Source: Eledone cirrhosa (lineage: Eukaryota). From it: a stretch of DNA of 64,000 bases. Numbering within the stretch: the stretch's first letter is position 1; each line of letters starts with the position of its first letter. Location of the stretch: assembly GCA_964016885.1 (NCBI GenBank), contig OZ024741.1, positions 175,398,001-175,462,000 of the forward strand, read 5' to 3'. A program made the position numbers and the translations under genes. This document shows, in pieces, positions 59,087-60,014 of this stretch. The notes under the pieces are model-generated. The model ran no database searches, was not told the origin of the DNA, and saw only the letters and a program-made list of their open reading frames with translations.

Positions 59087-60014
59087 TTATAAACCTCGAT
59101 ATGAATACCCCCCTCCGCCCTCCGTGGTATTTTCTTCGTGGTTATAAGAGGCTTAGCTCTGTTTCTCGACCGTTATATCGCGTGACTATCTCCCCCTCCG
59201 CCTTTTGGGATTCTTTCTCACGTCGTGTAGACGCGTTCTTGAGACTAGTAAAATGAGGTATCCTCTTGATAAGTCGGCAGACCTCGCAAGGACTCTATAT
59301 CTTTGATATATTGTTTTTGTTTATGCCACGAAACTACGTAGTCGAGAATTTAGGAACAGTTTAGGTATGATACATTTTATTACTAATTATATCTAAATGT
59401 TTCTTCTCTCTTCATAATGTATTTTTAACTCTGATACTGGTTCAGTCTGGTTCAAACTGAATTGTGTCTGTCCCAGTCATTCATTGAGCAAACATCGGTG
59501 AAGTTGGCACCCTTAACTCACAGTTGGGTGCGGATGCATTCATGTATATATGTGTGTGTCCGCATGTATCTGTGTGTTTATAAATATATTAATAACTCCC
59601 TCTGGTCGAGCAATCTTTGAAGTGTGGGGACAACTGGAAAGCTTCCATTACTCATACTTCTCGCCTTCTTCACTACCTCTTCTACGGCCTCGATATGAAT
59701 ACCCCCTCCGCCTCCGTGGTATTTTCTTCGTGGTTATAAGAGGCTTAGCTCTGTTTCTCGACCGTTATATCGCGTGACTATCTCCCCCTCCGCCTTTTGG
59801 GATTCTTTCTCACGTCGTGTAGACGCGTTCTTGAGACTAGTAAAATGAGGTATCCTCTTGATAAGTCGGCAGACCTCGCAAGGACTCTATATCTTTGATA
59901 TATTGTTTTTGTTTATGCCACGAAACTACGTAGTCGAGGAATTTAGGAACAGTTTAGGGTATGATACATTTTATTACTAATTATATCTAAATGTTTCTTC
60001 TCTCTTCATAATGT
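59087..60014 (+). mobile_element. Family E second locus: 1.55 tandem units with two hammerheads (59261-59347, 59853-59940)
   Basis: Near-identical to 37733-38627; GUC sites at C59343 and C59935 (592 nt apart); same 3' end ctcttcataatgt(TA)n. Confidence 0.9.

What the first reader, a model, noticed from the sequence alone, without database searches (positions are those of the whole stretch)
59087..60014. Independent second family E insertion with the same 3' end and a different 5' truncation
Seen: near-identical to the 37.7 kb copy, ending at the same ctcttcataatgt(TA)n but starting ~100 bp earlier in the unit, with different flanks. It has a tiny inverted cap (atatttataaac) taken from the same internal site as the 65 bp cap at 37733. 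Inference: a fixed 3' end with variable 5' end and more than one unit length fits target-primed reverse transcription of a multimeric or circular template rather than segmental duplication.
Basis: partly seen in the sequence, partly recalled or inferred. Interest (0 to 1): 0.75.

Follow-up and report, generated by a model that had tools for sequence, protein, structure and literature searches.

The report
Two-armed 591-base hammerhead retrozyme insertion
This is one of thousands of recent copies of a non-coding 591-base repeat that carries a predicted self-cutting RNA motif and sits in TA repeats as two back-to-back arms ending at two different fixed points, a footprint likely left by a borrowed Penelope-type enzyme copying a probably circular RNA into both ends of a DNA cut.

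Summary
Observation confirmed; the reading is right in direction but incomplete. Family E is a ~591-bp circularly permuted unit with 8,274 exact hits genome-wide, roughly 3,800 insertions (estimate). Each unit holds a type I hammerhead motif that Rfam missed: U3-A8 core, 57-nt stem II domain, a compensatory change in stem I. There are two fixed ends, not one: E (78 nt after the predicted cut) and I (167-169 nt further). The 'cap' is a short second arm ending at I. All 33 outward-facing end pairs on 132 Mb of contig 1 are E+I; none is E+E or I+I. A coding Neptune-type Penelope-like element in this genome shows the same rule (+82/+150), a U3-A8 hammerhead and the TA target. Best reading: a non-LTR retrozyme mobilised by Penelope-like machinery, probably from a circular RNA. 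Self-cleavage, expression, circularity and the partner enzyme are not shown. Retrozymes, Penelope tails and their link are in print. I did not find the strict E+I rule or a 167-nt tail in the papers read. The scan found this architecture earlier in other retrozyme families (310 and 465-469 nt) of this genome, but not in this family.

The parts
58986..59080 (.). (TA)n target, left side
59081..59094 (-). Short second arm whose outer end is fixed site I; 1-bp overlap with the forward arm
   Evidence: family rule
59094..60014 (+). Forward arm, 1.55 units of the 591-bp unit, outer end at fixed site E
59261..59348 (+). Hammerhead motif, first copy; predicted cut after 59343; one G of stem I is missing here (present in contigs of runs X1 and X3)
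59853..59941 (+). Type I hammerhead motif, intact: stem I UCCUC/GAGGA, U3-A8 core UUGAUAA, 57-nt stem II domain, GAAA, 2-bp stem III with palindromic loop; predicted cut after 59935
59936..60006 (+). Long predicted hairpin between the cut and site E; competes with stem I of the hammerhead
   Evidence: predictions
59421..59591 (+). Internal E-to-I segment (the 'tail', 167-169 nt in the reference unit); site I at 59589-59591
60015..60215 (.). (TA)n target, right side
60635..60870 (-). Local inverted duplicate of the target site without the insertion (empty site)
37728..37799 (-). Second copy: 72-bp arm ending at site I, 4-bp overlap at the junction
37796..38626 (+). Second copy: forward arm of 1.41 units ending at site E, with two intact hammerhead motifs (cuts after 37957 and 38548)

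Best explanation
Family E is a non-coding 591-base repeat with a predicted type I hammerhead ribozyme in every unit, and it is likely a non-LTR retrozyme that a Penelope-like (probably Neptune-type) RT/GIY-YIG protein copies, likely from a circular monomer RNA, into both ends of a cut in (TA)n. Shown: the unit, the motif and its conservation, the TA target, two fixed outer ends (E, I), strict E+I pairing of the two arms, free arm lengths, and short overlaps at the inner joint. Inferred steps: (1) multimer loci are transcribed on the hammerhead strand; (2) the ribozyme, probably as a dimer, releases monomers that are ligated to circles; (3) the borrowed protein cuts both strands of (TA)n; (4) one DNA end primes at E and the other at I, helped by 2-6 nt of TA match; (5) each cDNA runs round the template for anything from 14 nt to 11 units; (6) the two inner ends are joined by microhomology. 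If one arm is lost or negligible, a single arm ending at E or I remains.
For: Two ends and pairing. In 40 consecutive contig-1 loci, 25 are two-armed: 23 E+I, 2 with one aberrant end, 0 E+E, 0 I+I. The other 15 are single arms (9 E, 6 I) (counted by eye). In the 30 best-hit loci, 19 two-armed loci are all E+I, 10 are single arms and 1 is this copy. Of 182 exact junctions on contig 1 up to 132.4 Mb, 33 form outward-facing pairs within 10 kb, all E+I (17 and 16 by orientation; this set overlaps the 40 loci). The one apparent I/I pair further on is two separate insertions. Hammerhead: found by descriptor; 94.7% of cells paired over 16 sequences of three subfamilies; a stem I pair is U-A in 8, U-G in 1 and C-G in 7; slid controls 36-56%. 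The HHR strand folds at z -5.0 and -5.9, the other strand at -2.0 and -0.4 (14 shuffles each). A Neptune-type family with a 938-aa RT + GIY-YIG frame has a U3-A8 hammerhead and ends at +82 and +150. Of its 23 loci, 14 exact and 2 near pairs are mixed, 1 is aberrant and 2 are unresolved. RNA stage: rare variants shared by all units of a locus are A>G 11 vs T>C 5, single-unit variants 4 vs 16 (Fisher P 0.006; 0.014 on unique sites). Two rare variants are in all 13 segments of L031. TSDs of 14-16 bp are readable at 6 of 40 loci tested. Literature: two internal RT start sites define the PLE tail and both strands are extended in vitro (PMC11167929); the tail is often on one end only (PMC8557442); U3-A8 cores occur in PLEs (PMC4209133).
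Against: No sequence link between the unit and any coding PLE was found among 40 GIY-YIG loci. A pattern search for a short-stem-II relative of the hammerhead gave only 3 hits, whose matched stretches read as family E motifs with a shortened stem II. The partner is therefore unidentified. The predicted ground-state fold pairs the 3' strand of stem I elsewhere, and stem III has 2 bp, so cleavage may be poor. PMC11167929 found uncleaved RNA to be the main substrate in vitro. The 2026 preprint found cleavage in 1 of 9 predicted retrozymes. The covariation rests on essentially one evolutionary event in stem I, and the sequences are related. The A>G signal is modest and some sites recur. The 167-nt tail is far longer than the 30-40 bp in print.
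Confidence: 0.78

Rival explanations
1. Same Penelope-like machinery, but the template is an uncleaved linear multimer transcript of a genomic array, not a circle; the hammerhead is inherited from a pLTR and little used.
For: Uncleaved RNA was the dominant substrate in vitro (PMC11167929). The coding Neptune family gives the same two-end footprint from a long linear tandem RNA. The ground-state fold blocks stem I. Arrays of 11 units exist as possible sources.
Against: Units within an insertion are mostly more alike than the median other locus and can share rare variants in all segments. An A>G excess shared by all units fits an edited monomer copied repeatedly. The motif is conserved with a compensatory change over subfamilies ~75% identical.
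Confidence: 0.3
2. The second arm arises by fold-back or by copying the first arm's own DNA (self-priming, as proposed for rotifer Penelope inversions), not by a second priming on RNA.
For: Inner joints overlap by 1-7 bp in 26 of 36 two-armed loci. In most loci the shorter arm lies within the longer one. Arms share alleles. A self-priming model is discussed in PMC3846280.
Against: In L050, L060, L073 and L077 neither arm is contained in the other. The two inner breakpoints are mostly unrelated and spread over positions 1-556. Fold-back gives no reason for the second arm to stop at the other fixed site.
Confidence: 0.07
3. A LINE enzyme mobilises the unit as a SINE-like element, and the inversions are L1-type twin priming at TA-like internal sites.
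For: Both sites offer TA microhomology to a (TA)n primer (sequence). TSDs of ~15 bp occur. Twin priming (recalled) gives inverted 5' segments.
Against: No poly(A) or LINE-like 3' tail is seen. Either site can be the sole end (9 E, 6 I). Both arms can exceed one unit. The same rule holds in a GIY-YIG element of this genome. Other TA-like stretches in the unit are not used as ends.
Confidence: 0.06
4. DNA-level spread: segmental duplication, satellite expansion by unequal crossover, or Helitron-type rolling circle.
For: Some loci are segmental copies with shared flanks (L004-L006; the pair in L061). Tandem growth by unequal crossover is proposed for retrozymes in the 2026 preprint.
Against: Flanks differ at nearly all loci. 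The empty site is next door. Arrays end at fixed sites and come as inverted pairs. The fold and the A>G excess are strand-specific.
Confidence: 0.03

Closest known systems
Metazoan non-LTR retrozymes (Cervera and de la Pena 2020, PMC7229834; Li et al. 2026, bioRxiv 10.64898/2026.07.22.740005)
   Same: Non-coding tandem units, one type I hammerhead per unit, short stem III with palindromic loop, GC below 50%, stable fold, thousands of copies, PLEs in the same genome.
   Different: Unit of 591 nt (170-400 nt in the 2020 paper; inside the 51-972 bp range of the preprint). U3-A8 core with a 57-nt stem II domain. Dispersed insertions as inverted arm pairs with two fixed ends, which the parts I read do not describe. 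Cleavage and circular RNA are shown there, not here.
Endonuclease-bearing Penelope-like elements: Poseidon PAc (PMC11167929), Naiad/Neptune (PMC8557442), rotifer Penelope (PMC3846280)
   Same: Partial tandems, inverted 5'-truncated second copy, a tail on one of the two ends, AT or (TA)n target, hammerhead about 80-90 nt before the first end.
   Different: No ORF. The whole unit is the repeat and multimers reach 11 units. The tail is 167-169 nt instead of 30-40 bp. No homology to a coding element was found.
Non-autonomous Chlamys elements such as MRC1 (PMC8557442, passage)
   Same: Non-coding PLE passengers that form multicopy head-to-tail insertions.
   Different: Algal, described without canonical hammerheads, and similar to their autonomous partners at the 3' end; here no partner match was found.

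Membership tests
Non-LTR retrozyme | Tandem non-coding unit of a few hundred bases | tested here: met
   591-bp unit, multimers to ~11 units; longest stop-to-stop frame inside the element 86 aa
Non-LTR retrozyme | Type I hammerhead motif in each unit | tested here: met
   Descriptor hits and pair counts; Rfam gave no ribozyme hit
Non-LTR retrozyme | Self-cleavage of the RNA | not testable with these tools
   Needs in vitro transcription of monomer and dimer
Non-LTR retrozyme | Accumulates as circular RNA | tested here: inconclusive
   No RNA holder listed; only indirect signs
Non-LTR retrozyme | No LTR/PBS/PPT layout; TSD longer than 4 bp where present | tested here: met
   No LTR layout (PBS/PPT not searched for separately); 14-16 bp duplications at 6 of 40 loci
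Penelope-like element (autonomous) | RT + GIY-YIG open reading frame | tested here: not met
   No ORF in the unit; not an autonomous member
Penelope-like element (non-autonomous passenger) | Partial tandem plus inverted 5'-truncated arm, tail on one end | tested here: met
Penelope-like element (non-autonomous passenger) | Microsatellite / AT-rich target | tested here: met
Penelope-like element (non-autonomous passenger) | Tail of 30-40 bp | tested here: not met
   167-169 nt here; 68 nt in the Neptune family of this genome, so the length appears to vary by family
Penelope-like element (non-autonomous passenger) | Sequence shared with the pLTR of a coding partner | tested here: inconclusive
   None among 40 GIY-YIG loci out of 10,597 candidates; negative
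SINE | tRNA-derived head and LINE-like or poly(A) tail | tested here: not met
   No tRNA, 5S or 7SL hit in Rfam over 59050-60050; no poly(A); circularly permuted multimers

The most novel reading that the evidence does not exclude
The two start sites face each other in one RNA helix that closes the 167-nt tail. A Penelope RT dimer grips a single RNA circle at this helix, gives one start site to each cut DNA end, and both subunits roll round the same circle. This would explain the strict E+I rule, the free tail length, and Penelope tails in general. Support: local folds pair E with I at P 0.9-0.99 in 5 of 6 sequences closest to family E (0.4 in the sixth). Against: P is only 0-0.6 in older subfamilies, about 0 in folds of whole circles, the helix is not seen in the Neptune tail, and TA-like sites are partly self-complementary anyway.
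Probability: 0.25. Interest if true: 0.78.

Novelty: new variant of a known kind. Interest (0 to 1): 0.55.

Why it matters
How animal retrozymes move is proposed (borrowed Penelope enzymes, circular RNA) but, in the papers read, argued from co-occurrence and pLTR similarity. Here the insertion footprint itself matches a coding Penelope-like family of the same genome. The strict one-E-one-I rule says that the two priming events are coupled and asymmetric, a constraint on the unresolved Penelope mechanism that the existing in vitro system can test. The family also shows that large, young retrozyme families with U3-A8 cores and long stem II domains slip past Rfam.

Tried and rejected
Rfam scan at E up to 5: only chance miRNA/snoRNA-like hits, no ribozyme. 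ORFs: nothing coding. Partner search: BLAST of the unit against 40 GIY-YIG loci gave only simple-repeat matches; the hammerhead pattern with a short stem II gave 3 shortened family E motifs; the older relative E2 proved to be a sister non-coding subfamily, not the partner. L068, where an E arm abuts a Neptune fragment, reads as an insertion beside a complete Neptune mini-insertion, not a chimera. Naiad as partner: the TA preference fits, but PMC8557442 reports cephalopod Naiads as long inactive and without canonical hammerheads; I did not search for Naiads in this genome. Expression: no RNA holder listed. Laying four runs gave no usable ends; the raw-read run gave 0 reads; a 621-base contig in X1 (591 + 30) is what either a DNA tandem or a circle would give. 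Presence/absence between individuals could not be tested. The E/I helix failed in whole-circle folds and in the Neptune tail. Private-variant count across arms: 30 shared against 113 unshared; the unshared ones are read as later mutation or assembly error, so this does not prove one template molecule. TSD test: 30 of 40 loci gave nothing (pure TA runs hide it) and 4 hits were set aside as element-end or low-complexity artefacts. Look-up of earlier findings by this sequence: none.

Full report
Observation. The copy at 59081-60014 and the one at 37728-38626 are 98.3% identical over 984 columns. Both end at the same base before (TA)n, called site E. Their forward arms begin 88 bp apart in a unit of 591 bp (594 in this copy, which has private indels). 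The inverted caps are 14 and 72 bp long and both end at a second site, I, 167-169 nt past E. Of 1,772 TA-array ends scanned, only these two caps show that junction. An inverted local duplicate at 60635-60870 shows the same left flank, a TA run and the start of the same right flank without the element. So this is an insertion into (TA)n.

Family. The genome is 3.0 Gb. I take it for a cephalopod from a recalled SINE resemblance and from earlier scan notes; I did not test that. A 23-mer at E has 8,274 exact matches against 0 for the control. Its first 100 hits fall in 46 places by my count, so roughly 3,800 insertions (estimate). Exact E-TA junctions number 1,947 and I-TA junctions 629 + 1,004. 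Many copies are 99% alike. Two sister subfamilies about 70-78% identical over the compared regions keep the unit length, the register and both ends. Runs under 11 organism labels hold more than half of the sampled words (14 rows); their nature is not known.

Anatomy. Insertions are one arm, or two arms back to back. Each arm is a stretch of the circularly permuted unit, from 14 bp to about 11 units (L031). I fetched the first 40 of the 46 contig-1 places. Of these, 25 are two-armed: 23 E+I, 2 with one aberrant end (L057, L078), none E+E or I+I. Nine are single E arms and 6 single I arms (counted by eye). This set was found with an E pattern, so short I+I insertions could be missed but E+E could not. 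Among 30 best-hit loci, 19 two-armed ones are all E+I (overlapping and shared-flank loci counted once). From the listed junctions on contig 1 up to 132.4 Mb (100 E, 82 I), 33 outward-facing pairs lie within 10 kb and all are E+I; two same-strand E/E neighbours are not outward-facing. One apparent I/I pair further on is two insertions. Inner breakpoints spread over unit positions 1-556, and 26 of 36 joints overlap by 1-7 bp. In L050, L060, L073 and L077 neither arm contains the other, which argues against fold-back. Duplications of 14-16 bp are readable at 6 of 40 loci.

Ribozyme motif. Rfam found none. By eye, then by descriptor, each unit has a type I hammerhead: stem I UCCUC/GAGGA, core UUGAUAA (U3-A8 in place of C3-G8), a 57-nt stem II domain, GAAA, a 2-bp stem III with a palindromic loop, and UC at the cut, 78 nt before E. 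Over 16 sequences (18 cluster representatives less one with a long insertion and one junction chimera), 94.7% of 525 cells pair; slid controls give 36-56%. One stem I pair is U-A in 8, U-G in 1 and C-G in 7, and a loop II pseudoknot is kept at 91.7%. These sequences are related, so this is about one event, not seven. The first motif of this copy lacks a G that contigs of two runs have. As circles, monomers fold at z -5.0 and -5.9 on this strand and -2.0 and -0.4 on the other (14 shuffles each). That fold uses the 3' strand of stem I in a long hairpin ending just before E, so the ribozyme fold is not the predicted ground state.

Sign of an RNA stage. Rare variants shared by all overlapping units of a locus are A>G 11, T>C 5; single-unit variants are A>G 4, T>C 16 (Fisher P 0.006, or 0.014 on unique sites). 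Common polymorphisms are A/G 10, C/T 3 of 16 (P 0.012). This fits A-to-I editing before copying (inference), but the numbers are small.

Machinery. GIY-YIG matches are abundant (10,597 candidates, 150 scored). L107 holds a 938-aa frame with RT and GIY-YIG between direct repeats. A Cys motif before the nuclease makes it Neptune-type by the description in PMC8557442. Its repeat has a U3-A8 hammerhead (10,891 exact hits) and ends in (TA)n at +82 and +150. Of 23 loci, 14 exact and 2 near two-armed insertions pair +82 with +150, one has an aberrant end and two are unresolved. It shares no detectable sequence with family E, so it shows the mechanism, not the partnership.

Literature. PMC11167929 (main text up to the start of Methods read): a Poseidon protein cuts and extends both strands and starts at two internal sites that bound the tail; ribozyme cleavage was not needed in vitro. 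PMC8557442 (passages, sections 6 and 7, supplement rows): inverted truncated copies, 30-40 bp tail often on one end, (TA)n preference. PMC3846280 (passages): tail optional on one inverted pLTR; self-priming model. PMC4209133 (passages): U3-A8 variant in Schistosoma PLEs. PMC7229834 (parts 2-3 of 6 and passages): retrozyme circles; PLEs as candidate mobilisers; no occurrence of 'inverted' in the main text. bioRxiv 10.64898/2026.07.22.740005 (parts 1-3 of 5: introduction to discussion): retrozymes as non-autonomous PLE derivatives; 1 of 9 cleaved; its supplements were not seen and could hold related families. Eight searches showed no paper on this family, on a strict pairing rule or on so long a tail; most subscription journals and Repbase are not covered.

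Earlier findings. Eight notes on this genome describe the same two-armed layout in retrozymes of 310 and 465-469 nt; none matched this sequence. I reached my reading before the look-up, and I do not count them as support.

Verdict. A young, large retrozyme family with a Penelope footprint: a new variant of a known kind, interest 0.55. The retrozyme/PLE reading stands at 0.78; within it, a circular template is more likely than a linear multimer but is not shown. The boldest open reading, two start sites facing each other in one helix on one circle, has strong local folding support in family E and fails in whole-circle folds and in the Neptune tail: 0.25.

Noticed in passing
window 46429-46756: Two-armed mini-insertion of the Neptune-type family of L107, with hammerhead motifs, ending at its two fixed sites in (TA)n.
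   Followed up: partly
window 47667-48215 and 5820-6266: Ends of a second Neptune-like family (matches L110), one with an inverted pair.
   Followed up: no
window 60504-61210, also 41260-41718, 43428-43623 and 45741-46432: End fragments resembling those downstream of GIY-YIG motifs in L096 and L108 (a different PLE type), in inverted arrangements; the 58.8-62 kb target region is duplicated four times around them.
   Followed up: partly
L067 ~1947 (-), L110 ~393 (-), L112 ~533, L113, L114, L115, L123, L125: Other type I hammerhead motifs with canonical CUGANGA cores, most 43-148 nt before TA runs: further retrozyme or PLE families.
   Followed up: no
L034 and L073 flanks: The flanks beyond the TA runs are inverted copies of each other, suggesting target rearrangement at insertion.
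   Followed up: no
L153 (G000:C4:341451221-341454278): A 565-nt monomer variant with deletions, repeated in tandem: a shortened unit that was itself multimerised.
   Followed up: partly
L109 1775-5062 (+): Uninterrupted 1,096-aa PLE-like frame (RT plus C-terminal nuclease motif); a candidate active element of another family.
   Followed up: partly
window 58460-58650 and about ten similar places (e.g. 24694-24939, 29542-29779, 39362-39586, 50430-50654): A dispersed ~200-bp repeat that resembles a cephalopod SINE (label recalled, not tested).
   Followed up: no
window 4501-5793 and 46752-47262: Further large inverted-arm structures next to TA runs, not identified.
   Followed up: no
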